From Octopus vulgaris (taxonomy: Eukaryota): 64,000 nucleotides of DNA. Below the pieces are notes generated by a model that did not search any database, had not been told where the DNA came from, and saw only the letters and a list, made by a program, of their open reading frames with translations. Location: positions 1,240,001 through 1,304,000 of the forward strand of contig OX597826.1 of assembly GCA_951406725.2 (NCBI GenBank), given 5' to 3'. The translations under genes were made by a program, and so were the position numbers. Below are positions 9,891 through 62,284 of the stretch, one piece after another; the first letter of the stretch is position 1; each line of letters starts with the position of its first letter.

Positions 9891-11475
9891 TCAGGTTGTC
9901 TCACATGAAATGTCGCATTTGTAAAAGGAAACATTAAAATTGCTTTTTAAGTTTTAGAATATTTATTTAATTAAAATATGGTCCTTGTTCATTTATGAAC
10001 TTCATACAATATTCCTAAGGCATATATTCCATCTTCAAAGAATTTGTCATCTTTTACACTGATATTGAATGCTTCAATTATCTCTTCTTTGGAAATAATA
10101 CATTTCTAAATCTCTCAGAGAGATTTATGCAGTAGCAGCACAATAGAGTGATAGTATGTTGTCAACTTAATGTGACAGTCCCATGAAAGGGAAGAATGCT
10201 ACTGTTATTTAGCCCTAGGAAACACCGTTTCCTGTTGGACCTGACACATTTCCTGTGTCTTTATGTTTTCAAAGTGGAGACAAGCGTCTCCGCCCAGCAA
10301 AGCCAGCATCCAGAGACTAGTTTCAGAGTCATTGCTCATCATCAGTCTGGAGTAGCATGGCTTGCTGGCTGCCAGTGTCTATCTGCCTTTGAAAACATAG
10401 ATTTCAAGTGAAATACATTCACTGATCAGTGAATGTTTTATTATCAATGAATGTTTTATTGCATGTAGCTCGAAGCATTTAGATATGTGATAATCAGTAG
10501 GAGAGATATAAGGAGGATGTGCCAAAATTTCATAATTCAGGCTTTGCAACTTGTGGACTGTAGCTTGAGAAGTGTGAGGAGGCTGTGCATTATCATGAAG
10601 CAAAATTGGGCCATCTCTCTTCGCTAATCTGGGTTGCTTCTTTATTAATTTTTCATGCAAACAATCAATTTCCTGACACTAGGATGTTGCTGTTACAGTT
10701 TTTCCTTGTTGCAAGAATGAATAATGAATAACCCCCTTTGTTGACCACCATATAGTGTCCATCAACTTTTTAGGGTGCAATGGTGGTTTGGGGTAGTGTT
10801 TTGGCAACTCTTCTGCATCTAAGCACTGTCCTGTCCTCCTGCTGTTATCAAAGAGTATCCATTTCTCATCACATGTAATGAATCAATACAAAAATGATTC
10901 TCTTTCCAACCAAGAAACCAACAGGGAACACACTGTAAGGCGTCGGTTTCTTTGAATGTGTTTAAATTGATGGGGAACAAACCTATCCATCTTTTTGACT
11001 TTTCCAATTTTCTTCAAGTTTTAAGATGCAGTTGCAGGAGATGTCTGCAGCTCTGATCCAATTTTTCAGATCGTTCTCAGATTTTGTTTAATCAAAGCTT
11101 TCAATTCATCATGCTGAATAACTGATTTTGTTCCCCCTCCTGGTTCATTTTTAAGGCCTTCATTTCCTGAATGAAATCTTTGGAACCATCTCGGAATGGT
11201 TCTAATGTCAACAGAATCATTACCAAAAGCCCGTTTCATGTTTTGTAGAGCTTCAGTGGCAGAGTGACCCAACTTGTATTCATACAAGAAAATCACTCGG
11301 TATTGTTCGGTTGTCAACATTGTCATAAGAGCTGTGGGTAGCAATTTTGAATAATAGACAATAGTCTAGAACGAAAAAGAGTTAAGGGTAAACACAAGCA
11401 TAATACATAGAAGCTCATTAAAAATCCATTTATAGAAACCCATTTAAAATATGACATTTCATGTGAGACGACCTA

Positions 11476-27118: not shown

Positions 27119-27311
27119 TATGTCTGTGTACGCGTGTGCACACACGCACACACACACACACTGTGATTGCCTCAGTAAACAACTCTTCCTGAAAGCAACA
27201 ATGCTATTTTCACAAATCTCAAATATAAAATGAATAAATAAAATATAATATGTTAGTTTTTGTGCAGTATACTCAGCCAGTTGTACTATTTTTCCTTTCT
27301 TTCCTTTGTAG

Positions 27312-27465
27312 TGTTGTTGTATCGCAGTGGACAAAACTATTGATGATTGTAAAATACCACATTACACAGGCTCATTTTACCTATCATCTCATTGATGGGG
27401 CCGTTCCTCCAAAGAAACGGTCAGAGATTGTTGATGACTTCAACACAAATCCAAACGGTGCAAAG
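27312..27465 (+). CDS. TTF2: TTF2-like coding exon (helicase C domain, motif IV)
   Basis: tttgtag| ... |gtaagc. VVVSQWTKLLMIVKYHITQAHFTYHLIDGAVPPKKRSEIVDDFNTNPNGAK. Confidence 0.92.
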
Positions 27466-28411
27466 GTAAGCAACTCTATATCATCATCATCATCATCATT
27501 AAGCATCTGTTTTCCATGCTGGCATGGGTCAGACTGTTTGACTGGACCTGGTAAGCTGGACATCATTGTTATAATGTCCACTTCTCCATGCTTGCATGGG
27601 TCAGATGGAATTTGCTGTGCCAGATTTTCTACAGCTGGATACCCTTCCCGTCCCCAACCTTTACCTGTTTCCAAGCATGACAATATTTCCCCATATCTAT
27701 TTTGTACTTGTTTCAGTCATTTGACTGTGGCCATGCTAGATCCCGGCTTATCTAGCCATATTCTTCATAGAAGACTGGAAACTAACAACACTGCTTGTAT
27801 AACAGTGACACTCATTTACAACCATCAAATGATATCAAAACAAAGGTACACATAAGCACACACACTTATATCTATGTATGTACATGATGGGCTTCTTTCA
27901 GTTTCCTTCTACCAAATCTACTCTGATAAGCCTAGTTCAACCTGGGGCTGTAATATCTTAGATGCTTGTCCAAGATGCCAAGCAGTGGGATTGAACCACA
28001 AACAATGCAGTTGGGGAGTAAAAACATCTTAATTACAAAACCACACCTGCTGCACCATGGCAACTAAAACAATAAACCGGAGCATGTTAATTGGTTCTGT
28101 GTTTTGCTCTGTTGGGGTTGACAGCCATGCTGTGCTTACACTGTTGCTATCTATCATTCTTTTATCTATTATATATACCGCAACGGAAACTCTCATTTCA
28201 TTGAAAGGTGTCTTGGGCCAACAAGGGAACCCCTATACAGTTGTTCATACTGCTAGAAATAGCTAAATCTCCTGAAAAATGTCAGCTTGCCATCTTAAAA
28301 TAAGACAGTCATTATAAAATGTTGTCATAGATAAATCTGAAAAAAAGAAATGATGAGGTGGTCACTGTTGGAACACATTTGATCATAGGTCAACTTGATG
28401 ATCAAGATTGA

Positions 28412-28532: not shown

Positions 28533-29824
28533 CAAGGGACGTTCAATAAGTAATGTCCCTGAACCATTTGCAGTTGTTTGATCTAGCTGAAATTTTTCAT
28601 GTGCAATCATTTATATCTCTATAGAGTAAGTGACAAATTACAGCTCTGAACTAATTGTGGTTTCTGATTTACAGGTGTTTGAACTGAGTCAAGTGTGAAA
28701 TGGAGCCTGTTGAGTGTCGAGCAGTGATCCGGTTTTTGTATTTGAAAGGACGCACACCACGGGAGACTTTTGATGAAATGAAAGTAACTTATGGTGATGA
28801 TGCCCCATCATATGACCTTGTAAAATGCTGGCATTGTGAATTCAAACATGGTCGGAACTCTGTGGAAACAGCTCCCAGATCTAGTCGCACCCCTTCTGCC
28901 ATTGATGAGGCATCTGTCCGTCAAGTTGAGGCTGCCATTTTGGAAGATCGACGCATAGTTATTCGCCAAATAGCCCATGAGGTCAAGATTAGTACCAGGT
29001 CTGTGGAAACTATCATTCATGACCATTTGCATATGCAAAAGGTGTCTGCCAGATGGATTCCCAGGTTGCTCACGCCTTTCCAGAAGCAAGAACGCGTCGA
29101 GTGCTCGAGGATGAATTTGGAGATGTGCCAAGAAGATGAGTCAAAATTTTTCAAAAGACTGATTACACAGGATGAAACCTGGGTCCATCACGATGATCCA
29201 GAGACCAAAGCCCAGTCAATGCAGTGGAAGCACCGTGACTCACCCCCTCCAAAGAAGGCAAGGGTGCAGTCCTCCGCTGGCAAGGTCATGCTCACAGACT
29301 TCTGGAACCAGGACGGAGTAGTGATGACAGATTTCCTGGCAAAGGGTACCACAATTACAGGAGCCTATTATGCTTCACTTTTGAGGAAATTAAGAGAAGT
29401 TATCAAAATCAAGAGGCGGGGCAAGATTAGCAAAGGCATCCTCCTCCTGCAGGACAACGCTCCGGTCCACAACTCGCTTGTCGCCAGATCAGAAGCACAG
29501 GCGTATGGCTATGAACTCCTTCCCATCCCCCCTACTTTCCTGACCTTGCACCCTCTGATTTTCACCTTTTCCCAGTCATGAAGTTGTTTTTGAAAGGAAA
29601 GCGTTTCCCAGATGATGCAGCCTTGATTTCTGAAGTCACGTTCAGGTTGGAGGACCAAGCTGGGGTCTTCTACAAAAACGGTCTCCAGAGCCGCATCAAA
29701 CGATGGTAGAAATGCGTAACTCTGGGTGGTTCCTATGTAGAAAAAGACTAATAACTGTACCAAGTTTCGTTGCTCTACTGCTATGGGAAGTGGGTCAGGG
29801 GCATTACTTATTGAACGCCCCTCG
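28533..29824 (+). mobile_element. Full-length ~1.29-kb mariner element (DD34D type, irritans-like)
   Basis: TA|caagggacgttcaataagtaatg ... cattacttattgaacgcccctcg|TA. Confidence 0.95.
28700..29752 (+). pseudogene. Mariner transposase, frameshifted near 29520 with a later stop
   Basis: KVSARWIPRLL, ITQDETWVHH and LLQDNAPVH. HPPY(F)PDLAPSDF continues in a shifted frame. Confidence 0.9.
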
Positions 29825-37995: not shown

Positions 37996-40100
37996 ATTAA
38001 AAGAAAAGTTTTTTTAAGGGAAAATTTGTATAGTGTTCAAATATAAGTGGCATGTTCCTTGTTTCTGCCTTTCTCTGTCTCTCTTGTTTGCACTTGTGGG
38101 TTCCAGGTCGTTGTAAATTCTTGGTAGGGTAGAAGAAGAAGGTTGATGAGGAGAGGGGGTGGAAAAATTTGGGAGTGCCTTGATGGTCGTATTTTGAATG
38201 GTCAGTGACAGTTAGCAGTTAGCAGTCAGTGACAGTTAGCTAGCAGTTGCAGTTCAATTCAGGAGAATATTTCTATTGAAAGGTTTGTTTATGGAATTTG
38301 CTTAGGTGTTATACTATAAAGCATTAGTGATAAAGTTAAGAGGTAGAAGGTGGAGCAGAAGAAGAAGAAGAAGATGACGATGATGATGATGATGAAGAAG
38401 AAGTAGAAGTAGAAGAAGATGATGATGGTGATGATAATGATGACGACGATGATGATAATGATGATGATGAGGAAGAAGAAGAAGAAAGAGAAGGGAGAAT
38501 ATGAATGAGTGGAAGTAGTGAGGTGTTGTATGACTTGAAGTTGGCACGTTATGGGTTATAGCTGTGATTGGGGCTGATTTGTAATGGATTCTTTGGAATG
38601 TAATATTTGCGTGTGTATTTGTGTTATTCTAAAGCTGAGGTGTATAAATCGTTTGTCGTAGACCCGTTAAGAAGTGGCCTGTATTTTGTAATAAAGAGAG
38701 TTTCTTTACTTATTCGTTGTCTCGAGGTTGTATCGTCCCTAAATTGGTAGAGGGGGAAAATCGTGAAGCCTGGTGTTTTGTTGTTGGCGCAAGTATCTAT
38801 ATGTTGGCTGAAAGCTATTTTTCTGTTTTGGGGAATTTTTATCTGGGATCTGTGCAGGGCCATTCTTTTACGCAAACTATTTTTTGTTTGACCTATGTAC
38901 TGCTCTTGACACCCAGAGCAGGTTAGTGTGTATATCAGGTTCTCCGAAGCACATGTGAAGTTGCTTTTCACTGTAAACCGTTGTCCCTGTTTGAAGGAGA
39001 ACTCTGATCCCTCAATTAGATAATCGCATATCCCGCAATTGGGTCTTCGACATTTTTTTTACTGTCGGCTTCTGTGTTGAAGAGTGAATTCGGGCTTGTG
39101 TTAGGAGACTTTTCATGGATCTAGGCTGTCTTTTGCTTTTTATGATCGTGTGTGTTTGGAGGATTGTGTTTATTCTGTGGTCTTTTTTTAGGAGGGGTAT
39201 GTTGTGGAGGATGGTGCCGAAGGCTTCATTATTGAGAGGGTTGTGTGTGATGTATGGTAAGGCTTTTGGTCGTAAGTTTTTCTTTGATTTGTGATGTCTC
39301 AGTTCCTGGATGTTAAGTTGAAGGGCACGTTGAATGCACATGTCAATAAGTGAAGGTGGGTAGTTCCTGGTGATGAGGGTATCTTTTAGTTCTTGTAGTC
39401 GTGTGTCTCTGGTGTTTGCATTAGAAACTATAGTGCATATCCTTTTTGCTAGATTGAAGGGGATATTCATTCTGGTGTGTCTGGGGTGGCATGAATTGAA
39501 TGGAAGATATTGCTTAGAATCTGTAGGCTTATAATATATGTCTGTTTCTATTACATTGTTAGCTTTCTTAATGAGGATATCGAGGAAGGGGAGTTGTTGC
39601 TGGCTATATTCCATCGTGAATTGGATGTTTACGTCCAGTCCGTTTAAAATTTCCTGGAATTCTATGAGTTTTTGTCGGTAGAAGTTGTCTTTGAAGGCGA
39701 AGAAGTTATTTCCAGGATGAATTTAACCCCTTCTATCACGAATTCTTTTTTGATGCGATGTGGTAGTTCGTTGGCGTGATTCTCTAGCCAGAATTGGATT
39801 GCCTCTATTCCTAGGTTGTGGGGGATATTGGAGTAGAAGTTGACTACATCGAAGGATACCAGTAGGGTGTTTTTGTTTATAGTATTCGGTAGGTGATTGA
39901 GCATATCCAAATCGTCCCTTATATAGCTTTTGACATGTTTGAGGAGTGGTTTTAACAGGGTGTCTAAAAAGTTACTGAGGCGGTGGGTTTTGCATGCGGG
40001 ACCTGCTATTATGGGTCTCAATTTGAGGTCATTAGGATTAGGGACTTTAATTATTTTGTCTGTAGCTATCTTGCATGCGTTACTTATTTTCTCACTTTTG
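37996..40100 (-). mobile_element. Penelope-like retroelement (RT + Cys linker + GIY-YIG endonuclease), defective
   Basis: RPIIAGP, LVSFDVVNFYSNIP, LPFLDI..IYYKPT, a C-x4-C-x2-C linker across a frameshift, and NLIYTLTC..C..QYIGQT..LRKR..H. Confidence 0.93.
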
Positions 40101-40107
40101 TGTATCT

Positions 40108-40705
40108 TAGGTCATAGTGTTGTAGGAGCTGAGTTAAGCAGCTTCTTCTTGGTCGGAAACCATGTTGGGTGTCAGGCAGCAAGTCATTTTCTTCAAGGAA
40201 GGTGATCAGTTTCCTTCTGACTATTCGTTCCATGACCTTGCTGATGTGTGAGGTCAGAGAGATAGGTCTGTAGTTCTTGGCCTCCGCTCTGCTACCTCCT
40301 TTATGAATAGGGCATATTTTACCTTCCTTCAGTTTTCTTGGAAGTTTGCCAGTTGCAAGGAAGCTTTGAAAGAGGAACTGCAGTGGTCTTCCTAGGACTC
40401 TCTTACATACTTTTAGGAGGATTGCCGGGAATCCATCGGGGCCAGTAGCTGAGTTTGTTTTCATTTCATCTATAGCCTTTATTACATCGTCTTCCTTTAT
40501 ATTGATGTAATCAATCATCGCTGCCTCCGATTTTATATCTGCAGTGGTAAAGAAGTCAGTTGGATTGGTGATTTGGAAATGCCCAAGGGGTGGAGTGAAA
40601 ACACTTTTGAATTGCTCATTCAGTAACCCTAACACTTACCCTCATTGGATTTCCTGTGAGTGTGTCATCCTTTTCAAGGAGTGGCCTTATCCTACAGTGC
40701 ACCGT
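40108..40705 (-). mobile_element. Internal fragment of CR1-group LINE ORF2
   Basis: SATGPDGFP..NYRPISLTS..QHGFRPRRSC; near-identical to the copies at 44270-44860 and 59800-60390. Confidence 0.92.
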
Positions 40706-42451: not shown

Positions 42452-45400
42452 TGATGAAAGAAGTCACCCCCACCTGGTGATGAAAGAAGTCACCCCCACC
42501 TGGTGGACACCCGGGAAGAGGTTTTGAGTGAGAAACCTGCCCGGGAAGTGAACCCAAGTGCAAGTGCTCCTACCGGCAGCAAGGGCCATGGAGATGGAGA
42601 ACCCAGGGAAGAAGTAGAGGGAGGAAGAACTAAAGGAAGGACTAAAAGAACTGAAAGAAAAGCTCAAGCAGGACCAAAGGGTGAAACAGCCAGGAATAGA
42701 AGTGGAACCACAAAGGATGGAAACAAACAGCGCACACGGGTGTGTAGGTTCTACCTGAGAGGTACCTGCTGGCATGGAGAGGAAGGTGCAGGCTGCCGCT
42801 TTGCACATCGGGGACCCTGCAGCAGAGACACGAAACAGATAAGAAACAAACCATCAACACAAGGAAAAGGGAAGGTCCACGCACCACCTGCCCCAAAGCG
42901 GAGGTACGCAGATGTGGTGCGTGCCACAAACCGCCAACATGATGTTGTTGAAAGGGCAGCTGCTGAGCAAGAATCTTTTTTGTGCATGGCACAAAAGATT
43001 GTACAGCAGCTAACCTGGCTTCATCAAACCCAAGCTCGCAGATGGGACTACCCTCAATATACAAGACCACCACAGCAAACAGACCCAAGGTGGACACTGC
43101 CGGCAACAACATACACCTCACCTCGATGCTCCTACTGAACATCAGAGGACTGCAAACACTCAGTAACAGGACAAAAATCCCGTTCTTGAGAGACTTTGTT
43201 GCATGCAATCAAGCCTTATGCATAGCACTTACGGAAACGCACCTGAAACCGGACATAGCAGATGCGGAATTACACATACCACAGTATGTTGTACTACGGA
43301 CCGACAGAAAAGAAAGGAGTCATGGAGGAGTTGCTATGTACATCCGTGAGGACCTCACACCCCAGGTCCTTTTGTCATATTCAAACTCGGTGTGTGACAC
43401 ACTAATTGTACATATAAGGCAACTTGATGTAGTTGTGTGTGCTATATATCGCCCTCCAGATGCCCCAAGCCATGTAGGCAAGTTTGAAGACTGCCTTATA
43501 AAAATAGAAGTTCTGATTACATTAGAACAACACATAAGTGTACTTCTTATGGGAGACTTCAATCTACCCAATGTCAGATGGCCCGAGGGCCTTTCTCTCC
43601 CAGGAATGACAAGATGTGAACGAGGACAGGCGAGGTCCCTCCTGAACCTCATCAACACCCTGTACATGGAGCAAGTAATACTCCAACCAACCAGGGCAGG
43701 TAACACACTGGATCTCTGCTTCACAAATAATATGGATCTCATCCATAATATGAAAGTGACACCGACACTACTCTCGGATCACAACATGGTAGAGCTGACC
43801 ATGTACGGGCCAAAGGAAAGCACGGACATGCAGCCTACAAGAAACCCTCAGAATCTTTCCAGCTTGAACTTCCATAAGGCAAACTGGAAACAAATTGAGA
43901 AAGAGATCCTCAAACAAAACTGGCCTGAATGTCTCTCCTCGCCAGACATCAACGTGAAACTTCAACAATTCATGTCTGTAATGCAAGCCATATGCTACAA
44001 ATGTGTCCCAGAGAGAAAGGCCACTGTACACAAGAACAAAATCCCCAGAGAGAGGAAAATTTTAATGAGACGGCGTACAAAAATTTCAAATCGCCTAAAC
44101 AAACAAATTGAAAGCAGTGAAAAGTCCCGCCTGAAAATAAAACTGTTGGAAATTGAAAAATGTCTGCAACTCTCCCATGAAAAGGAAAGAGCAGACAAAG
44201 AAGCCTGGGCTATAGACAACATAAAATCTAACCCCAGAGCTTTCTACAGGTATGCCAAAGAAACAGCTACGGTGCACTGTAGGATAGGGCCACTCCTTGA
44301 AAAGGATGGCACACTCACAGGAAAACCAATGAGGGTAAGTGAAATACTGAATGAGCAATTCAAGAGTGTTTTCACTCCACCCCTTGGGCATTTCCAAATC
44401 ACCAATCCAACTGACTTCTTTACCACTGCAGATATAAAATCGGAGGCGGTGACGATAAATTACATCGATATAAAGGAAGACGATGTAATAAAGGCTATAG
44501 ATGAAATGAAAACAGACTCAGCTATTGGCCCCGATGGATTCCCGGCAATCCTCCTAAAAGTATGTAAGAGAGTCCTAGCAAGACCACTGCAGTTCCTCTT
44601 TCAGAGCTTTCTTGCAGCTGGCAAACTTCCAAGAAAACTGAAGGAAGGTAAAATATGCCCTATTCATAAAGGAGGTAGCAGAGCGGAGGCCAAGAACTAC
44701 GGACCTATCTCTCTGACCTCACACATCAGCAAGGTTATGGAATGAATAGTCAGAAGGAAACTGATCACCTTCCTTGAAGAAAATGACTTGCTGCCTGACA
44801 CCCAACATGATTTCCGACCAGGGAGAAGCTGTTTAACTCAGCTCCTACAACACTATGACTGGGTGCTGAAACGACTGCTCAACCACTCAAATGTGGAAGT
44901 GATATATCTCGACTTTGCAAAGGCCTTTGATAAAGTCGATCATGGAATGATATGTCACAAACTGCGTGATCTCAACATAGTTGGAAAGCTGGGAGAATGG
45001 CTTCATGACTTTCTGAAAGATAGAAGTCAGGTGGTAGTAGCCAATTTGTGGTAGGACCACTTCCATTAACACGCAAATAGTGAGCGGTGTTCCGCAGGGC
45101 ACTGTTCTGGGACCACTACTGTTCATAATGGCCCTCTCAGACATGCCCTCAGCCATGCAAAGAGCCACGATCACAAGTTATGCAGATGATACAAAAGTTT
45201 CACAGGCAATACAGAACCCTGAGGACACTAAACACCTGCAATGTGAGCTGGACAAAATATACAAGTGGGCTGAAAAGAATAGCATGCAGTTCAATGCTGA
45301 AAAGTTTCAAGCTTTATACTATCAGCATGCAAAACTAAATGCAATACCCAATGAATACACTGGACCCGGAGGAATTGCAATCCCAGAGGCACAATCAGTG

Positions 45401-46183
45401 CGTGACCTGGGTATTTACATGAGTGATGACGCAACCTTTCGTGTACATGTTGCTAAACTGGCAATGAAATGTAGACGACTGGCCGGATGGATTCTCAGAA
45501 CCTTTAGAACAAGAGAACAAGAAACCATGATGGTCCTCTGGAGGACACTTGTCCTAAGCCACTTTGACTATTGCTCTCAGCTATGGTCACCATCCAGTGT
45601 CAAGTTGATCACAGAACTTGAGGCGATCCAACGTAGCTACACGAAGAAGATAGCCTCTATGCAGAATATAAGCTACTGGGAAAGACTCAAGAGATTAAAA
45701 CTCTATTCCTTGGAGCGTAGGCGAGAAAGATATGCCATAATATACATCTGGAAGATCCTGGAGGGACTTGTCCCAAACTTTGGCATCGAGAGTTACACAA
45801 ATGCCAGAACTGGGCGCCACTGCGTGGTGCCTAGGACTCCAAATTTGCCATCAAGATGTAGGACAAGATACTGTGATAGCCTGGGCTTCCGAGGCCCACA
45901 GCTCTTCAATATCCTCCCGAAGAACCTAAGAGACCTGCATGGGGTGGATGCAGATGTCTTTAAAATGAAACTGGATCTCTTCCTGTCAGGTATCCCAGAT
46001 GAACCAACTTCACGGCAGGAGGTGCAGATGAGGGCAGCTGCATCGAACTCTCTCATGCACCAAATGGCAGTTGCTAAAAAGCATTCGTGAAGTAAAACCA
46101 TGTAGCAACACCAAATGGCGGTGCCCCAGCATGGCCACAGCTCATAAGCTGAAACTAAAAATCAATCAATCAATCAATCAATC
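42452..46183 (+). mobile_element. Near full-length CR1-group LINE (ORF1 CCCH finger; ORF2 APE + RT)
   Basis: ORF1 42503-43138 with CRFYLRGTC..GCRFAH. ORF2 from 43126 (LNIRGL, LTETHL, MGDFN, SDHN, DFAKAFDKV, GVPQGTVLGP, YADD) with a stop at 44743 and a frameshift near 45050. (TCAA)n tail. Confidence 0.95.
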
Positions 46184-46870
<687 letters not shown>

Positions 46871-49460
46871 CATCATCATCATCATCGTTTAACGTCCGCT
46901 TTCCGCGCTAGCACGGGTTGGACGGTTTGACCGGGTCTGGGAAGCCAGGGGCCGCTCCAGGCTCCAGTCTGAATCTGGCAGAGTTTCTACGGCTGGATGC
47001 CCTTCCTAACGCCAACCACTCCGTGAGTGGATTGGGTGCTTTTTACGTGCCACCTGCACAGGGGCCGGAGGGTCCGGCATCGTCACGATCGGTTCGAGCA
47101 TTTTAACGTGTCAGCGGCACGGGGGCAACGAGGTCCGGGGTACTTTGGGGATCGGGGTATTTTGGGGATCCAGGGTACTTTGGGGATCCGGGGTACTTTG
47201 GGGATCCGGGGTACTTAGAATGGGTAGGGGGTATGTGGAATTGCTGCAGAAAGCAGCCCGGGTCTTTGTAGTCACAGCATATCTCCAGAGATCTCGGTCC
47301 TTCGCCATTGCCTCAGTGAGGCCCAATGCTCTGAGGTCATGCTTGACCACCTCATCCCATGTCTTCCTGGGTCTACCTCTCCCCCTGATACCTTCAACTG
47401 TTTGGGAGTGGCACTTCTTCACACATCTCTCTTCATCCATCCGCAGCACATGACCATACCATCGCAAGCGTCGCTCTTGCACACCACATCTGATGCTTCT
47501 TATATCCAGCATTTCTCTCAGGATACTTACACTCTGTTTTGCGTGCACACTGACACTACACATCCAGCGGATCATGCTAGCTTCATTTCTTTCAAGTCTA
47601 CGCATGTCTTCTGCAGTCACAGCCCATGTTTCATTACCGTGAAGCATGGCAGTTCGCACACATGCATCATACAATCTACCTTTTGCTCTGAGGGAGAGGC
47701 CTTTTGTTGCCAGTAGGGGTAGGAGCTTTCTGAACTTTGCCCAGGCTATTCGTATTCTAGTGGTGATACTCTCTGTGCATCCACCTCCGCTACTAACTTG
47801 GTCTCCCAGGTAGCGGAAACTATCAACTACTTCTAGTTTCTCTCCCTGGAGTGTGATGGAATCTGTTTTCTGAGTGTCTGTTGTGTCTATTGTCCCTGTG
47901 CATCTGCCGCACATGAAAGCTATCTTATCTGTTAATTTCCCTTTAATGTTGCTGCACCTCTTATGTGTCCATAACTTACATTGGGTGCATCTTATGGAGT
48001 TTCTACCTGTACCTTTCCTACAGGTTGAGCAGGGCCACCTACCCGAGGGGATGTGTGTTGAGTACCTCTTGCTGCTTACTAATACTTTGGTCTTTGCTAC
48101 ATTTATTCTAAGGCCCTTTGATTCCAACCCTTGCTTTCATACCCGAAATTTCTCTTCTAGTTCCGGTAGTGATTCTGCTATGAGAGCTAGGTCATCGGCA
48201 TAGAGGAGCTCCCAGGGGCATCCCGTTTTGAATTCCTCTGTTATTGCCTGAAGGACTATGATGAACAAAAGGGGACTGAGGGCTGAGCCCTGGTGCACAC
48301 CTACTTCTACTCGGAATTCTTCACTATATTCGTTGCCAATCCTAACCTTGCTAACAGCCTCTCTGTATAGAGCCTGTACAGCCCTTATTAGCCATTCTTC
48401 AATCTCCAGTTTCCGCATCGACCACCAGATAAGGGAACGGGGAACCCTGTCAAAGGCTTTCTCCAAGTCTACAAAAGCTATGTAGAGGGGTTTATCTTTA
48501 GCTAGGTACTTCTCCTGCAGTTGTCGGACCAGGAATATAGCATCAGTGGTGCTTCTACCTGGTACAAAACCGAACTGCATTTCATCTAAACAAATTCTCT
48601 CCCTAATGAGATTGGTTATGACCTTCTCTGAGACCTTCATCACCTGGTCCAACAGTTTGATACCTCTGTAGTTATTTCTATCTAGAGCATCACCCTTACC
48701 CTTGTAGCAGTTGACTATGGTACTGCTGCACCAGTCATTGGGTATGGCTCCATTGTGAACTACCTGGTTTACAATGCGGGTGACTATGGCATGGCCCACA
48801 TAGCCAGCTGTTTTAAGCATCTCAGCAGTGATTCCTGATAGGCCAGGGGCTTTGCCTGGTTTCATATCCTTAATTGCCTTATCTACAAGGGAGCTGTCTA
48901 TTCGGGTAGCTGGTCCCTCTACTGGGTCAACATTTGGCAGGCTCTCCTCCTCCCATTCATTCTCCTCATTTAGCAGTCTTTCATAATGGCTTCTCCAAGC
49001 CTCTTTCTTTTCACTAGTAGTAAAAGCAAGTGCCCCATCATCCATGCGGACACATTTCTCTCCTATAACATCACTATTTTCTCTGACACACTGTCTGGCA
49101 ATCCGAAATACTTCAGCTCTTTGATCCTCGCGACGCTGGACATTGGCAAACTTCTTCTTTTCTGCTACATCTTTGGCAATGTATACCTGCCGCCCAGCCT
49201 CCCTTTTGGCTATCTGGTACAGTTCCCTGCTGCCCCCATCCTTCCAGGCTTTCCAGGCCCGTCTCTTTTCACAGATGGCTTTATCTACTGCACTATTCCA
49301 CCACCACGTAATTCTAGGTCTGGAAGGGACTTTGCACCATCCACAAACTTGGTCTGTGGCACTCAACAAGCTGTCCCGTAGGAATTCCCAGCTACCTTCT
49401 ATGTCTGACGTCTGAAGCTCCTCTTCCCTCTCATCAAATTTCTTGATGAGTATGTCCCTA
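46871..49460 (-). mobile_element. RTE-clade LINE, cut at its 5' side by the assembly gap
   Basis: ORF with GKAPG, NYRGIKLL, DLEKAFD, GVHQGS and YADD; one stop near 48137; PHD-like insert; (GAT)n tail. Confidence 0.95.
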
Positions 49461-49560
49461 NNNNNNNNNNNNNNNNNNNNNNNNNNNNNNNNNNNNNNNN
49501 NNNNNNNNNNNNNNNNNNNNNNNNNNNNNNNNNNNNNNNNNNNNNNNNNNNNNNNNNNNN
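49461..49560. other. Assembly gap (100 N)
   Basis: Run of n. Confidence 1.
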
Positions 49561-49829
49561 CTAAATATATAACACACGCGCACGATAGCGAAAGATAAGA
49601 AAACAGTTTTAAAGGTATATCTCGCAAGATCAATTTCTCCAATACACGCGATACATTTATATATATATATATATATACATACACATATATATCAACAGAA
49701 TAATTAATCAATTAGATCGATATATTACTTTTATATTGGTATTATCAAGAGCGAAGCACACGTGTGTGTGTGTCCCCCAAAACCTGTACGAAAGCACTTA
49801 CATACACAGATATCTAAATTAATTAATTA

Positions 49830-54074: not shown

Positions 54075-57000
54075 TATTTATCAAGGACAAATCTGCCGCT
54101 ATTCCCAGCGAGACAGATTGTGTTTGCACAGGGATTGCCCCTTTACCCATCTCCCGGGGACTCGTCGGACATTTAAAGATAACCACTCACATAAAAATAG
54201 CCGCGGCCACAGTCACCTGCGGTTCCCTAGACTTGGTGAAACCACCTCTCCTTCCTCATGTCTTTTTAGCTATAATGAATCTAGCAAAAGAACTGGAAAA
54301 AAACATCCGAGCTATCACCCATCGCCATCCACCACTATTACCCCACTACACATGCCATTAAAAAGCAATCAAATAAACAAATCACCAAAACAATTAAAAC
54401 CATCCACTCTCAACCTCAACATTTCTGCTTAATGCCCAAGGCATCAGCCCTTCCACCAATACACAAAAATGGAAGGCTTGCAGATTCCTGGAGTGACTGG
54501 GTCGAGGCCCATCCAAACCACATCCCCTTTCTTCGTCCTCACTGAAACCCATCTTAGTGACCTCCACTTGGAAGCCGAGGTGAAAGTTAAAAATTTCAAA
54601 ACCATTCGTGCTGATCGTGTTGGCAGAAGAAAGGGTGGGACTGCCATTTATGTCCATGATTCATTTCAACAGAAGCCATGAACATATTTTTCGAATGGAT
54701 ACTGCGAAGCAGTCGCTGTATTCAGTCAAACCAACAACTTAACAGTAGTTGGGCTCTACAGACCACCCCAAACGTCCCTACCATGCTTCAAGGAATGCCT
54801 CAACAGCATAAAGTGTTTCATTCAGCAGTGTCAACCTGACAACATTTTAATGATGGGAGATTTCAACCTTCCCGGGGTTGACTGGTCTACAAACAGTCTG
54901 CCGCCAGGTTCTTCTCTCTCAACCCCTGACAGGGAGGCAGTGGAATCGCTTCTTGACTTCATGGATGACTTCTTCTTGTCCCAACTGGTACTCGAACCAA
55001 CGAGATGTCACAAAAACGTCTTAGACTTAATTTTCAGCAATCACACTGATACTATCCACAATATTGCAGTGGAGAAAACCCTACTCTCCGACCATGACAT
55101 GGTTCTCTGTGATCTGAGATTTCACTGGCCAAAATGCAAAACAAATGTCATCCCTCCTGTTCATCCATTTGACACTATAGTTTTCCACAATGCAAACTGG
55201 GAAAGCGATCAATAATGATCTTGCACAAGTCGATTGGTCCTTCCACGCACACATACACACCCACTAACATCAAAAAGTCCTGGCAGTCACTTGTAGACAC
55301 CATCACGAACATATGTTCAAGACACACCCCATTAAGATCTGCAAACAAATCTAAGTGTCGAATCTAGAAATAGAAAATCTCTCATAAGGAAAATTAAAAG
55401 AATCAACAAAAAGATCAACATGCTGAAATACTGTCAACAGCAACACACCAACCTGACTGCCATCTCGTCGCTAGAGATTAAAAAACATAAACTCCAAAAC
55501 AACATGATGTCTATCATCAATAGTCAGCGAAGAGCTGAAGAGGCCTGGGCCATTGAGAGGATCAAACTCAATCCCAAAGTGTTCTTTTCATTTGCAAAAA
55601 AACACAGAGTCACTGGTTCTACTGTTGGCCCTCTGATTGATGAAAATGATATTCTTCAAGACAATGCCAAAACCATGGGAGAAATATTGCAGAAACAATA
55701 TTGCTCTGTTTTCAACAATCCTGATATGACTGATCTGGGCTGTATCAGTGATGTTACTCCCCAATACACTTTATCGGACATAACATTTGGCGCTCCTGAT
55801 GTCTTAGCAGCAATAAAGGAAATGAAGCATAATTCAGCAGTAGGTCCCGATAGGTTCCCTGCTTGTGTCTTGAAGATGTGTCAAAACCAACTTGCACCCC
55901 CTCTAGCCAATCTGTGGCGGAACTCATTGGATGCTGGATATATACCAGAAGACCTTCTATCCCAGTCTGTTGTCCCAGTTTTCAAAAAAGGAAACAAATC
56001 GCTTGCCGTGAATTTACCGTCCAATCTCACTCACCTCTCATATCATCAAGGTATTTGAGAGGGTGCTGAGATCGCGTATGACTCACTTCCTTGAGAGTCA
56101 TAATATGCTGAACCCCAACCAGCATGGATTCCGTAATGGGAGAGATTGCCTGACGCAGCTACTGCATCATTTTGATGACATTTTGAGAGCCTTGGGAGAG
56201 GGTTCCAACACTGATGTCATCTACCTTGATTTCAGCAAGGCCTTTGACAGGGTTGATCATAAGATCCTTCTGAGAAAGCTGTCCAATATTGGTGTCACTG
56301 GAAAGCTGCTGCAATGGATCAAGTGCTTCCTCTCTAACAGAACCCAACATGTTGTAGTCGAAGGAGTCAAATCCAGCCCAGCCAAAGTCAGCAGTGGTGT
56401 CCCACAAGGCACTGTGTTGGGCCCACTTCTCTTCATCATCTACATAAATGATATTACTGACACCATCAAACACAGCAACATCAGAACCTTCGCTGATGAT
56501 TCCAAGCTCCAGAAGGTCATCAATGGCGTGGATGACCGAATAAACCTTCAGTCAGACCTACTGGCTGTTGTCCAATGGGCGGAAAAGAATAACATGTTGC
56601 TAAATGAAGACAAATTCGAACTGATCCACTTTGGAAGGGAGGACGCTCTGAAACTCCACATACTCTCTTCCTTCTGGAGAAATTCTCATGGCATCCAACA
56701 ACATCAGAGACCTGGGAGTAACAGTGGACAACAACATAAGCTGGGCTACACATATAAGCAGCAAAGTTGACATGGCCCGCAGAATGTGTTCCTGGATTCT
56801 CAGAACCTTCCAGTCGAGAGATTCCCACGCTATTATCCTTCTCTTCTCCACTTTTGCCCGACCCCACCTTGAATACTGCTGTCCACTGTGGTCTCCCTAC
56901 ACAAAACAAAATATTATGAGAATTGAAGCTCCCCAAAGGTCAATCACAAAAAAGATAGATGGCATGTCAGACCTTGACTACTGGGGTAGACTAGAGAAGC

Positions 57001-57465
57001 TGAAATTGTATTCACTCCAACGACGCCGTGAACGCTACATTATCTGTATGATGTGGAAAATATTCCATCAGCACTGTCCGAATGATGTTGGCATCACCTT
57101 CAAAATGCATCCAAGGCTTGGACCACGTGCCATCCGTCCACAACAAAAATCTAAATCGCATCACATAACGACAATACGGCACAACTATTTCACCTCAATT
57201 GGACCCGCTCTCTTCAACATTACACCAGGACACGTCAAAAAAGAAACTGACCACACAAAATTCAAGAAGTCTTTGGACAAATTCCTTCAAACAGTACCGG
57301 ACAAACCATCCACACCCGGATATGTCTCCGCAAACAATAACTCTCTGCTCGAATGGGCCTTGGTGCCCAAATCCTGAACTGAAAGACTTCGCCAGGTGGT
57401 GCTATTAAGTTAGACATGGCCTGGGCCAATACTGGCCAAAAACCTTTCTAAGTTATTCTAAGTTA
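54075..57465 (+). mobile_element. Second CR1-group LINE family, 5'-truncated and frameshifted
   Basis: ORF1 remnant ICRYSQRDRLCLHRDCPFTH (CCCH). ORF2 pieces LTETHL, MGDFNLP, LSDHD, DFSKAFDRV, GVPQGTVLGP and FADD. Tail ttctaagttattctaagtt. Confidence 0.93.
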
Positions 57466-58582: not shown

Positions 58583-61500
58583 TGATTGATTGATTGATTC
58601 CAGTTCCAGCCTATGAGCTGTGGCCATGCTGGGGCACCGCCATTTGGTGTTGCTACTTGGTTTTACTTCATGGGGGCTTTCTAGCAACTGCTATTTGGTG
58701 CATGAGAGAGTTCAGATGGCAGCTGCCCTCATCTGCCCCTCCTGCCGTGAAGTTGGTTCATCTGGGACACCAGACAGGAAGAGATCCAGCTTCATTTTAA
58801 AGACAGGTCTGTATCCACCCTTCAGGAGGATATGCAGGTCTCAGTGGCAGGTTTGGAGCCCAGTTCTGGCATTTGTGTAACTCTCGATGCCAAAGTTCAG
58901 GACACTTCCCTCCAGGATCTTCCAGATGTATATTATGGCATATCTTTCCCGCCTACGCTCCAGGGAGTATAATTTTAATCTCTTGAGTCTTTCCCAGTAG
59001 CTTACATTCTGCATAGAGGCTATCTTCTTTGTGTAGCTTCGTTGGATCGCCTCAAGTTCTGTGATCAACTTGACACTGGATGGTGACCATAGCTGAGAGC
59101 AATAGTCAAAGTGGCTTAGGACAAGTGTCTTCCAGAGGACCATCATGGTTTCTTGTTCTCTTGTTCTAAAGGTTCGAAGAATCCAGCCAGCCAGCCGTCT
59201 ACATTTCACTGTCAGTTTAGCAACATGTACATGAAAGGTCGCGTCATCACTCATGTGAATACCCAGGTCACGCACTGATTGTGCCTCTGGGATTGCAATC
59301 CCTCCGGGTCCAGTGTATTCATTGGGTATTGCATTCAGTTTTGCATGCTGATAGTATAAAGCTTGAAACTTTCCAGCATTGAACTGCATGCTATTCTTTT
59401 CAGCCCACTTGTATATTTCGTCCAGCTCACATTGCAGGTTTTTAGTGTCCTCAGGGTTCTGTATTGCCTGTGAAACTTTTGTATCATCTACATAACTTGT
59501 GATCGTGGATCTCTGCGTGGCTGAGGGCATGTCTGAGAGGGCCATTATGAACAGTAGTGGTCCCAAAACAGTGCCCTGTGGAACACCACTCATTATTTGC
59601 GTGTTAATGGAAGTGGCCCCATTGGCTACTACCACCTGACTTCTATTCTTCAGAAAGTCGTGAAGCCATTCTCCTAGTTTTCCAACTATGCCAAGATCAC
59701 GCAGCCTGTGACATATCATTCCGTGATCGACTTTATCGAAGGCCTTTGCGAAGTCGAGATATATGACTTCCACATTTGAGTGGTTGAGCAGTTGTTTCAG
59801 CACCCAGTCATAGTGCTGCAGGAGCTGAGTTAAGCAGCTTCTTCCTGGTCGGAAACCATGTTGGGTGTCAGGCAGCAAGTCATTTTCTTCAAGGAAGGTG
59901 ATCAGTTTCCTTCTGACTATTCGTTCCATGACCTTGCTGATGTGTGAGGTCAGAGAGATAGGTCTGTAGTTCTTTGCCTCCGCTCTGCTACCTCCTTTAT
60001 GAATAGGGCATATTTTACCTTCCTTCAGTCCCCTTGGAAGTTTGCCAGCTGCAAGGAAGCTCTGAAAGAGGGACTGCAGTGGTCTTGCTAAGACTCTCTT
60101 ACATACTTTTAGGAGGATTGCCGGGAATCCATCGGGGCCAGCAGCTGAGTCTATTTTCATTTCATCTATAGCCTTTATTACATCGTCTTCCTTTATCTCG
60201 ATGTAACTTATCGTCGCCGCCTCTGATTCTATATCTGCAGTGGTAAAGAAGTCAGTTGGATTGCTGATTTGGAAATGCCCAAGGGGTGGAGTGAAAACAC
60301 TCTTGAATTGTTCATTCAGTATTTCACTTACCCTCATTGGTTTTCCTGTGAGTGTGCCATCCTTTTCAAGGAGTGGCCCTATCCTACAGTGCACTGTAGC
60401 CGTTTCTTTGGCATACCTGTAGAAAGCTCTGGGGTTAGTTTTTATGTTGTCTATAGCCCAGGCTTCTTTGTCTGCTCTTTCCTTCTCATGGGAAAGTTGC
60501 AGACAATTTTCAATTTCCAACAGTTTTATTTTCAGGCGGGACTTTTCACTACTTTCAATTTGTTTGTTTAGGCGATTTGAAATTTTTGTACGCCGTCTCA
60601 TTAAAATTTTCCTCTCTCTGGGGATTTTGTTCCTGTGTACAGTGGCCTTTCTCTCTGGGACACATTTGTAGCATATGGCTTGCATTACAGACATGAATTG
60701 TTGAAGTATCATGTCGATGTCCGGCGAGGAGAGACATTCAGGCCAGTTTTGTTTGAGGATCTCTTTCTCAATTTGTTTCCAGTTTGCCTTATTGAAGTTC
60801 AAGCTGGAAAGATTCTGAGGGTTTCTTGTAGGCTGCATGTCCGTGCTCTCTTTTGGCCCGTACATGGTCAGCTCTACCATGTTGTGATCCGAGAGTAGTG
60901 TCGGTGTCACTTTCACATTATGGATGAGATCCATATTATTTGTGAAGCAGAGATCCAGTGTGTTACCTGCTCTGGTTGGTTGCAGTATTACTTGCTCCAT
61001 GTACAGGGTGTTGGTGAGGTTCAGGAGGGACCTCGCCTGTCCACGTTCACATCTTGTCATTCCTGGGAGAGAAAGGCCCTCGGGCCATCTGACATTCGGT
61101 AGATTGAAGTCTCCCAGAGAAGTACACTTATGTGTTGTTCTAATGTGGTTAGAACTTCTTCTATTTTTAAAAGGCAGTCCTCGAACTTGCCCATATGACT
61201 TGGGGCATCTGGAGGGCGATATGTAGCACACACAACTACATCAAGTTGCCTTATGTGTACAATTAGTGTGTCACACACCGAGTTTGAGTATGACAAAGGA
61301 CCTGGGGTGTGAGGTCCCCACGGATGTACATAGCAACTCCTCCATGACTCCTTTCTTTCCTGTCGGTCCGTAGTACAACATACTGTGGTATGTGTAATTC
61401 CGCATCTGCTATGTCCGGTTTCAGATGCGTTTCTGTGAGTGCTATGCATAAGGCTTGATTGCATGCGACAAAGTCTCTCAGGAACGGGACTTTTGTCCTG

Positions 61501-62284
61501 TTACTGTGTGTTAGTAAACCTCTGATGTTCAGTAGGAGCATCGAGGTGAGGTGTATGCTGTTGCCGGCGGTGTCCACCCTGGGTCCATCTGCTGTGGCGG
61601 TCTTGTGAACTGTGGGCAGTTCCATCTGCGAGCCTGAGCCTGATGGAGCCAGGTTAGCTGCTGTACAATCTTTTGTGCCATGCACAAAAAGATTCCTGCT
61701 CAGCAGCTGCCCTTTCAACAACACGTTGGTGGTTTGTGGTACGCACCACATCTGCGTACCTCCGTTTTGGGGCAGGTGATGCCTGGTCCATCCCATTTCC
61801 TTTCGGTGGTTGGTTTCTGTGGCAGGGTCCCGGATGTGCAAAGCGGCAGCCTGCACCTTCCTCTCCATGCCGGCAGGCACCTTTCAGGTAGAACCTACAT
61901 ACCCGTGTGCGCTGCTTGTTTCCATCCTTTTTGGCATATGGACCGTTAGGTTTGCCTCTGTCCCTGGCTGCCTTGTCCCTTGGCTTTGTCTGAGTTTTAG
62001 CTTCAGTTTTTCCTCTTTTTTTGGCCTCTTCATCTCCATGTCCACGGCTTTTGGAGCCGGTAGGAGCATCCGTACCTGGGTTCACCTCCCGGGCAGGCCT
62101 ATCGTTGGAGTTTTCTTCCTGGGCGTCCACCAGGTGGGGGTGACCCTCCTCATCTGCGCCCACGTCTCCATCCTTGCCATCTTTACTTTGTTCGCGTTTT
62201 TCGCTGTTAAAAATGGCATCCAGTGTGTTTATGTGCGATCTGACAAGTGCGTATGAGCGTACGAACTCTTGCCTCTTCCGCTCT
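58583..62284 (-). mobile_element. Apparently full-length CR1-group LINE (same family as 42452-46183)
   Basis: Short 5' UTR starting at the (TA)n edge, ORF1 with CCCH finger, ORF2 from 61541 with frameshifts and a long open RT stretch (YVDD), and a (TCAA)n tail. Confidence 0.95.

What the first reader, a model, noticed from the sequence alone, without database searches (positions are those of the whole stretch)
10137..10453. ~320-bp non-coding insert carrying an intact extended type I hammerhead ribozyme (retrozyme-like element)
Seen: the mariner transposase is interrupted by unrelated non-coding sequence, bounded by an imperfect direct repeat (tttatgcagtagc / tttattgcatgtagc). Its minus strand has a complete hammerhead: stem I UCCAGA/UCUGGA, CUGAUGA, stem II GAG/CUC with loop CAAUGA, GAAA, palindromic ACUAGU stem III, and a GUC cleavage triplet (cut between 10315 and 10314). 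An 11-bp distal stem I lies beyond an internal loop (UGCUAC/UGC). Known: this layout resembles the Schistosoma Sm-alpha hammerhead (loop II CAAAUA) and metazoan non-LTR retrozymes, which are small monomers that form circRNAs and are thought to use Penelope machinery. Inference: this is a monomer of a cephalopod retrozyme or ribozyme-SINE family. A Penelope RT/GIY-YIG element lies in the same window. Caveats: the 10.1-11.1 pair is U-U, and the very short stem III probably needs dimerisation.
Basis: partly seen in the sequence, partly recalled or inferred. Interest (0 to 1): 0.85.

Follow-up and report, generated by a model that had tools for sequence, protein, structure and literature searches.

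The report
Octopus hammerhead retrozyme with Penelope footprints
This is one copy of a 348-base repeat, present hundreds of times in the genome, that carries a predicted self-cutting hammerhead RNA, was likely spread by borrowing Penelope retrotransposon enzymes, and in many other copies holds a second, protein-coding mobile element at one fixed site.

Summary
The hammerhead is real and as described, but the boundaries are wrong. The element spans 10426→10092 (minus strand), and the 'direct repeat' is not a target-site duplication: one copy is mariner DNA, the other lies inside the element. It is a 5'-truncated monomer of a dispersed, non-coding 348-nt repeat (114 exact core matches), i.e. a non-LTR retrozyme. 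Its copies carry the Penelope insertion footprint. There are two fixed 3' ends 52 nt apart and an inverted 5' arm. Of 58 two-ended insertions, 50 have one end of each kind and none has two alike; 35 have a target duplication, mostly 8–14 bp. Copies read through the cleavage site and into the previous unit, so the template was circular or uncleaved. No autonomous Penelope carrying this unit was found, and the Penelope in the window shares no sequence with it. Unexpectedly, ~1.8–2.1-kb zinc-knuckle ORF1-only elements sit at one fixed site beside the ribozyme in this and sister families, with 12–17-bp duplications, and the composites re-transpose Penelope-style. Cleavage and circular RNA remain untested. 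This copy is antisense in an intron of a SNF2-family gene and has only one ribozyme.

The parts
10092..10426 (-). Retrozyme monomer, positions 12-348 of the 348-nt family unit; 95.4% identical to the family majority sequence
10294..10368 (-). Extended type I hammerhead (distal stem I, internal loop, stem I, core, stem II, stem III)
10314..10315 (-). Predicted cleavage site after GUC (after unit position 125)
   Evidence: cleavage itself not tested
10316..10321 (-). Palindromic stem III (ACUAGU), predicted dimer interface
10092..10143 (-). 52-nt 'tail' between the family's two preferred 3' ends (unit ~296 and 348), with a hairpin at about 10107-10127
10355..10371 (-). Site (unit 69-85) duplicated by ORF1-only elements in other copies; unoccupied here, one base changed
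10427..10448 (-). 22-nt 5' junction filler: a 12-bp repeat of the mariner target plus short inverted element bases
10449..11299 (-).
9970..10090 (-). Host mariner remnant, downstream part
27307..27468 (+). Context: exon of a SNF2-family helicase whose upstream exons lie just before the window, placing the element antisense in an intron
38624..40111 (-). Context: broken Penelope copy of a young family; shares no sequence with the retrozyme unit

Best explanation
It is a 5'-truncated single copy of a non-coding 348-nt retrozyme, a repeat with a predicted self-cleaving hammerhead, that was likely copied into an old mariner by the reverse transcriptase and endonuclease of an as yet unidentified Penelope-like element. 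SHOWN from sequence: a dispersed family with an exact 348-nt period; two fixed 3' ends 52 nt apart; head-to-head inverted arms; target duplications mostly 8-14 bp; copies running through the cleavage site and into the previous unit. INFERRED: source loci with two or more ribozymes are transcribed; the hammerheads cut as dimers through the palindromic stem III and release 348-nt monomers; a host ligase closes these into circles. A Penelope RT/GIY-YIG protein binds the conserved block around the unit junction, makes a staggered cut in AT-rich DNA, and primes one cDNA from each strand at the two internal start sites. The cDNAs run round the template for variable lengths and are joined, giving an inverted arm plus a partial tandem. 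The circle step is about 0.6 likely; an uncleaved tandem transcript is the alternative. The window copy is one-armed, has a single ribozyme and lies antisense to its host gene, so it is most likely an inert offspring.
For: Copy number: 114 exact 31-nt core matches and 306 exact matches to a 3' 25-mer, reversed-pattern controls 0; 2816 first-look candidates, 40 scored. Period 348 nt with seamless 348>1 junctions. In 88 insertions sampled by the 3' 25-mer, 58 have two outer ends: 50 have one short end (281-304) and one tailed end (>=338), 8 have one atypical end, none has short/short or tail/tail. This is the Penelope 'tail' and inversion pattern (PMC8557442, passages), which PMC11167929 maps to two internal RT start sites with both DNA strands extended. 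35 of the 58 share a non-simple >=8-bp repeat between flanks, against 2.3 for shuffled pairs. Truncation runs through the cut site without a step: 2 of 42 segments stop at 123-129, 12 of 99 cross the unit junction; 41 of 100 core-bearing copies cross it. Core positions differ at 6 of 502 cells against 473 of 8401 overall (best-hit sample). Sister families keep the fold with changed stem I pairs, and stem III is palindromic in 5 of 6 representatives and in the Penelope's own ribozyme. A U-U stem II base occurs in the active axolotl HHR_Amex2 (PMC7229834). Circular unit folds at z -8.
Against: No autonomous partner found: none of 80 Penelope loci (30, 30, 20, partly overlapping) carries the unit as its terminal repeat. 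No long tandem arrays: at most about 2.6 units among the 40 scored hits of a dimer query, whereas described retrozymes are typically tandem. Rfam has no match. The monomer's minimum-energy fold closes the core and is 7 kcal/mol below the open form. In the one reconstituted Penelope, ribozyme cleavage was dispensable and uncut RNA was the template; 8 of 9 predicted Xenopus retrozymes did not cleave in vitro. The cross-family pairing count (52 of 54) is partly by construction, since pairing was a search criterion. The window copy itself has no target duplication.
Confidence: 0.8

Rival explanations
1. Same non-autonomous, Penelope-mobilised element, but no circle: RT copies uncleaved linear transcripts from partial-tandem loci, and the hammerhead is a passenger or acts at another step.
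For: Ribozyme mutants did not impair insertion by the anole Penelope in vitro. The monomer fold predicted here is inactive. Read-through of the cut site fits uncut RNA as well as a circle.
Against: 5' truncation would shorten tandems each generation, and no long arrays were seen to replenish them (only 40 of 3174 candidates scored). The core and the palindromic stem III are kept across diverged families. Related elements in coral, mussel and axolotl make abundant circles.
Confidence: 0.3
2. The insert is only the pseudo-LTR or 3' end of an autonomous Penelope, left by 5' truncation.
For: Same insertion footprint. Xenopus retrozymes are homologous to Penelope pLTRs (bioRxiv 10.64898/2026.07.22.740005), so such an origin is likely in the past. 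Only a small part of the genome's Penelope loci was examined.
Against: The 3' end joins straight to position 1 of the same 348-nt unit. A Penelope ORF hit occurs in only 2 of 277 loci tested. Unit-like pieces near Penelope ORFs (L366, L371, L374) are not in terminal-repeat position; for L371 the piece lies outside the stretch shared with a sister copy.
Confidence: 0.07
3. A polymerase III ribozyme-SINE mobilised by a LINE.
For: Short, dispersed, high-copy, non-coding (longest Met-ORF 95 aa on the doubled unit).
Against: No A or B box on either strand (simple consensus patterns), no poly-A or simple-repeat tail of its own, two internal 3' ends and paired inversions.
Confidence: 0.03

Closest known systems
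Metazoan non-LTR retrozymes (coral, mussel, axolotl; PMC7229834, parts 2-4 of 6 read)
   Same: Size (mussel 350-390 nt), type I hammerhead, GC 40%, non-coding, highly self-paired unit, target duplications longer than 4 bp, weak palindromic stem III; U-U stem II base as in HHR_Amex2.
   Different: Mostly dispersed partial tandems with inverted arms rather than arrays; two defined 3' ends; expression and circles not shown; a resident site-specific ORF1-only element is not described in the text read.
Penelope-like elements, e.g. Poseidon of Anolis (PMC11167929, parts 1-2 of 4; PMC8557442, 12 passages)
   Same: Tail present at one end only, inverted 5'-truncated arm, partial tandems, AT-rich targets (flanks 68% AT), a hammerhead upstream of the RT start sites.
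   Different: No ORF; tail 52 nt rather than 30-40; extended canonical hammerhead rather than the minimal variants in this genome's Penelopes.
Vertebrate non-LTR retrozymes as non-autonomous PLE derivatives (bioRxiv 10.64898/2026.07.22.740005, parts 1-3 of 5)
   Same: Same conclusion on the mobilising partner; monomers dispersed over chromosomes.
   Different: That work argues from co-occurrence and pLTR homology, sampled no mollusc, and does not describe insertion ends. Here the evidence is the footprint, and no homologous pLTR was found.
Schistosoma Sm-alpha hammerhead / Rfam Hammerhead_1
   Same: Extended type I layout and a CAA.A-type loop II (recalled, not from a call).
   Different: No Rfam match; no pol III boxes.
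Target-specific Tx1 elements and SINEU-3 (PMC4494074, 12 passages); HAL1 half-L1 elements (recalled; search listing only) - for the resident insert
   Same: Insertion at one site of another repeat, about 16-bp duplications, tandem inserts separated by one duplication; ORF1 without ORF2.
   Different: The target is a ribozyme retroelement, the homologous site is used in sister families of different sequence, and composites are then moved with the Penelope footprint. Tx1 ancestry is not shown: only a CCHC knuckle and language-model resemblance to ZCCHC3-type/CCHC proteins.

Membership tests
Type I hammerhead ribozyme | Conserved core CUGANGA / GAAA / NUH with three stems, stem I open | tested here: met
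   26 of 30 copies intact
Type I hammerhead ribozyme | Covarying stems | tested here: met
   Double changes in all six stem I pairs across six homologous families; pairing was a search criterion, so the count is inflated
Type I hammerhead ribozyme | G10.1-C11.1 pair closing stem II | tested here: not met
   U-U in this family; variable (A-U, C-A, C-G, U-A) in sisters; active precedent HHR_Amex2
Type I hammerhead ribozyme | Match to an Rfam hammerhead model | tested here: not met
Type I hammerhead ribozyme | Self-cleavage | not testable with these tools
   needs in vitro assay
Non-LTR retrozyme | 150-450-nt non-coding, low-GC repeat with type I hammerhead | tested here: met
   348 nt, GC 0.40, longest Met-ORF 95 aa; no ORF of 120 aa or more over the window copy
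Non-LTR retrozyme | Tandem units with two or more ribozymes | tested here: met
   Met for the family (L025, L047, L060, L065), at most ~2.6 units; not met by the window copy
Non-LTR retrozyme | Target duplication longer than 4 bp when present; no LTR | tested here: met
   35 of 58 two-ended insertions; absent at the window copy
Non-LTR retrozyme | Expressed as linear and circular monomer RNA | tested here: inconclusive
   short cDNA reads cannot tell circles from genomic tandems
Penelope-mobilised element | Tail at one end, inverted 5' arm, partial tandem | tested here: met
   also in sister family B (ends 363 and 310-312)
Autonomous Penelope-like element | RT plus GIY-YIG ORF between pseudo-LTRs | tested here: not met
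SINE | Pol III A and B boxes; LINE-type 3' tail | tested here: not met
Tx1/HAL1-type element (resident insert) | Fixed target with 10-20-bp duplication; ORF1 with CCHC knuckle; no ORF2 | tested here: met
Tx1/HAL1-type element (resident insert) | Autonomous Tx1 partner sharing target or 3' end; RT phylogeny | not tested
   no partner identified

The most novel reading that the evidence does not exclude
A three-tier parasite: ORF1-only retroelements home to the base of the hammerhead's distal stem in several retrozyme families, thereby gain the retrozyme's ribozyme and Penelope-recognition ends, and spread as ~2.1-kb protein-coding retrozymes, ribozyme-processed RNA circles encoding a gag-like RNA-binding protein and integrated by Penelope twin priming.
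Probability: 0.3. Interest if true: 0.85.

Novelty: new variant of a known kind. Interest (0 to 1): 0.6.

Why it matters
How animal retrozymes are copied into genomes is an open question; Penelope machinery has been proposed from co-occurrence and homology. This family shows the Penelope footprint directly and maps two candidate RT start sites (unit ~296 and 348) and a ~12-bp stagger. That makes the proposal testable with a defined 348-nt template and the intact 781-785-aa Penelope ORFs in the same genome. The pairing of one short and one tailed end also supports two-strand priming as the source of Penelope inversions. The site-specific ORF1-only inserts are a parasite of a parasite that I did not find described. 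The window copy itself is probably inert.

Tried and rejected
Rfam: no hammerhead match. Flanking direct repeat as a target duplication: rejected by empty mariner sites. Window Penelope as source of the unit: no shared sequence beyond chance words. Search for an autonomous partner through GIY-YIG loci: none among those examined. 5' ends piling up at the cut site (linear cleaved template): not seen. The 5' pile-up at unit 69-70 was first read as an RNA 5' end with template jumps onto SINEs; rejected when longer flanks showed duplicated-target insertions. The apparent pile-up at unit 41 comes from self-complementarity at inversion junctions. RNA: no RNA holder listed. Laying three raw RNA runs (about 6% of each read) and one contig run on L010 gave 591, 593 and 465 reads, mostly 90-95% alike and only partly fitting, on both strands, with no end peak at the cut site; on the family-B composite L312, 11-16 reads with none over the ribozyme. 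The runs may not be the same species and cDNA libraries can miss circles, so this is inconclusive either way. ORF1 protein: no solved relative; one longer homolog, an uncharacterised Octopus protein. Earlier scan findings: none. Papers PMC10886601 and PMC9004415 (passages) were not relevant.

Full report
Observation. A descriptor finds it once in the window and never in 200 shuffles. Rfam does not recognise it. The limits were wrong. Other genomic copies align from 10426 to 10092. Fourteen uninterrupted mariner copies show that the insertion occupies 10091-10448, removed about 6 bp and added a 22-nt filler, without a target duplication. One arm of the 'direct repeat' (10455-10469) is mariner, the other (10124-10136) is inside the element. 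SNF2-domain exons just upstream of the window and a helicase exon at 27307-27468, all on the plus strand, put the element antisense in an intron, so the host pre-mRNA would not carry the ribozyme strand.

Family. The 31-nt core occurs exactly 114 times and a 3' 25-mer 306 times in the 2.8-Gb genome, with 0 for reversed controls. The unit is 348 nt, defined by seamless tandem junctions, 40% GC, without a long ORF or pol III boxes. The 30 best copies average 5.6% divergence from their majority sequence but 1.2% at core positions, and 26 have an intact core (a sample biased to good hits). At least five diverged sister families (67-80% identical where aligned) keep the same ribozyme plan with altered stem I pairs. 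Stem III changes sequence yet stays palindromic in 5 of 6 representatives, and the sixth family has a palindromic variant. Pairing was part of the search, the palindrome was not. A short palindromic helix III is the known mark of dimer-dependent cleavage (PMC4209133, passages). The monomer's best fold closes the core (7 kcal/mol below the open form), and the intermolecular stem III duplex is worth about -6 kcal/mol.

Insertion footprint. I sampled the first 100 of the 306 matches to the 3' 25-mer, giving 88 insertions after removing three duplicate loci and merging nearby hits. 3' ends fall at unit ~291-298 or 345-348. Fifty-eight insertions are head-to-head, with an inverted arm and a forward arm: 50 have one short and one tailed end, 8 have one atypical end, none has two alike. 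Thirty-five of the 58 have a flanking direct repeat of 8 bp or more, mostly 11-14, against 2.3 expected. This is the Penelope pattern of a tail at one end with an inverted truncated copy (PMC8557442). In the reconstituted anole Penelope the tail is the interval between two internal RT start sites and both target strands are cut and extended (PMC11167929). I infer twin priming: one cDNA from each strand of a staggered cut, one at each start site.

Template. Truncation is spread along the unit with no step at the ribozyme: 2 of 42 segments that reach it stop at 123-129, and 12 of 99 continue into the previous unit; among the 100 listed core-bearing copies 41 do so. The template was therefore not a cleaved linear monomer. 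A ligated circle explains read-through and the regeneration of tandems, since no array beyond about 2.6 units appeared among the 40 scored hits of a dimer query. An uncleaved tandem transcript is the live alternative, because cleavage was dispensable for the anole element. RNA data did not decide this.

Partner. The Penelope in the window belongs to a young family with many intact 784-785-aa ORFs. It has its own minimal U3-A8 hammerhead and no homology to the unit. Fifty further Penelope loci of several families, some overlapping, also lack the unit as terminal repeat, and only 2 of 277 loci tested (retrozyme and ORF1-insert loci) hold a Penelope ORF hit. The element is non-autonomous and its partner is unidentified.

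Resident parasite. Twelve of 100 core-bearing copies begin sharply at unit 69-70; 11 of these follow the AATAAA-type 3' end of a longer element. Longer flanks show ~1.8-2.1-kb inserts between unit 1-81/86 and 69/70-348, a 12-17-bp duplication of the 5' strand of distal stem I, sometimes as tandems of different inserts separated by one duplication. They encode one ORF with a CCHC knuckle and language-model resemblance to CCHC/ZCCHC3-type RNA-binding proteins. No RT or endonuclease was found downstream in 60 loci with an ORF1 hit (probes were the window's own LINE ORFs and many loci extend only about 2 kb). Sampling from the insert's side: 21 of the 30 best ORF1 loci sit at the exact junction or its duplication (2 of them already known), 8 more have retrozyme-family sequence in the locus, 1 has none. 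For a younger subfamily, 17 of 30 3' ends run straight into sister family B at the homologous site and 3 into the duplication plus another insert; 10 did not meet either test. Specificity is not universal: 11 of 20 more distant ORF1 loci had no retrozyme. Composites have themselves moved with the Penelope footprint: inverted arms are joined to truncated inserts in L138, L196, L261 and L273, so counts overstate independent insertions. A third group of upstream ends (L171, L209, L241) showed no ORF1 hit. Targeting of other repeats by Tx1 elements, with tandem inserts around a duplication, is known (PMC4494074). Membership in Tx1 or HAL1 is a resemblance, not tested by phylogeny.

Prior art. Non-LTR retrozymes are known from coral, mussel and axolotl, with Penelope mobilisation proposed (PMC7229834), and a 2026 preprint links vertebrate ones to Penelope pLTRs. 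Searches for octopus or cephalopod retrozymes, for insertion-end evidence and for elements targeting retrozymes returned no such description. A 2026 Octopus repeat annotation has no occurrence of 'ribozyme' or 'retrozyme' in its main text. Supplements were not read and subscription journals, Repbase and Dfam were not searched, so these families may be catalogued there.

Verdict. The window feature is a real but probably inert monomer of a known kind of element. The family adds direct genomic evidence for Penelope-driven retrozyme integration and an undescribed site-specific ORF1-only passenger. Interest 0.6; new variant of a known kind.

Noticed in passing
L266, L268, L269, L312, L313 and others: ORF1-only zinc-knuckle retroelements (1.8-2.1 kb; over 10,000 first-look candidates) inserted at a fixed site in several retrozyme families; some subfamilies have intact 457-476-aa ORFs and form their own tandem arrays (L305, L314).
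   Followed up: partly
L181:430-560 (G000:C29, about 13588940-13589060): A short piece made of the 5' half of a family-B-type hammerhead joined at its cut site to the 3' fragment that follows the Penelope's own ribozyme cut site; possibly an RNA-level ligation or template switch. Single exact occurrence.
   Followed up: partly
window 38624-40111 and L071-L100, L355-L356: Young Penelope family (period about 4.4 kb, many intact 784-785-aa ORFs, 16,403 candidates) with a U3-A8 minimal hammerhead and palindromic stem III; inserts into TA microsatellites. At least three more Penelope families with distinct hammerheads.
   Followed up: partly
L054, L104, L174, L303, L321, L322, L343, L371: At least six further retrozyme-like sister families, some with core variants (CCGAUGA; cleavage triplets AUA, GUA).
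   Followed up: partly
window 27307-27468 (+), with exons at G000:C13:1232569-1237559: SNF2-family helicase gene spanning the first half of the window; TTF2-like by recall, not tested.
   Followed up: partly
window 19700-25030: Large inverted duplication of a TA/CA-rich block (same translated stretches on opposite strands at 19703-21905 and 22970-25034).
   Followed up: no
window 13430-14085 and 28688-29581: Two further mariner remnants; the second has a 297-aa open frame.
   Followed up: no
window 42458-46090, 54682-57377, 58841-62283, 47111-49711: Several near-complete LINE copies (CR1/L2-like and RTE-like by recall) with long open frames.
   Followed up: no
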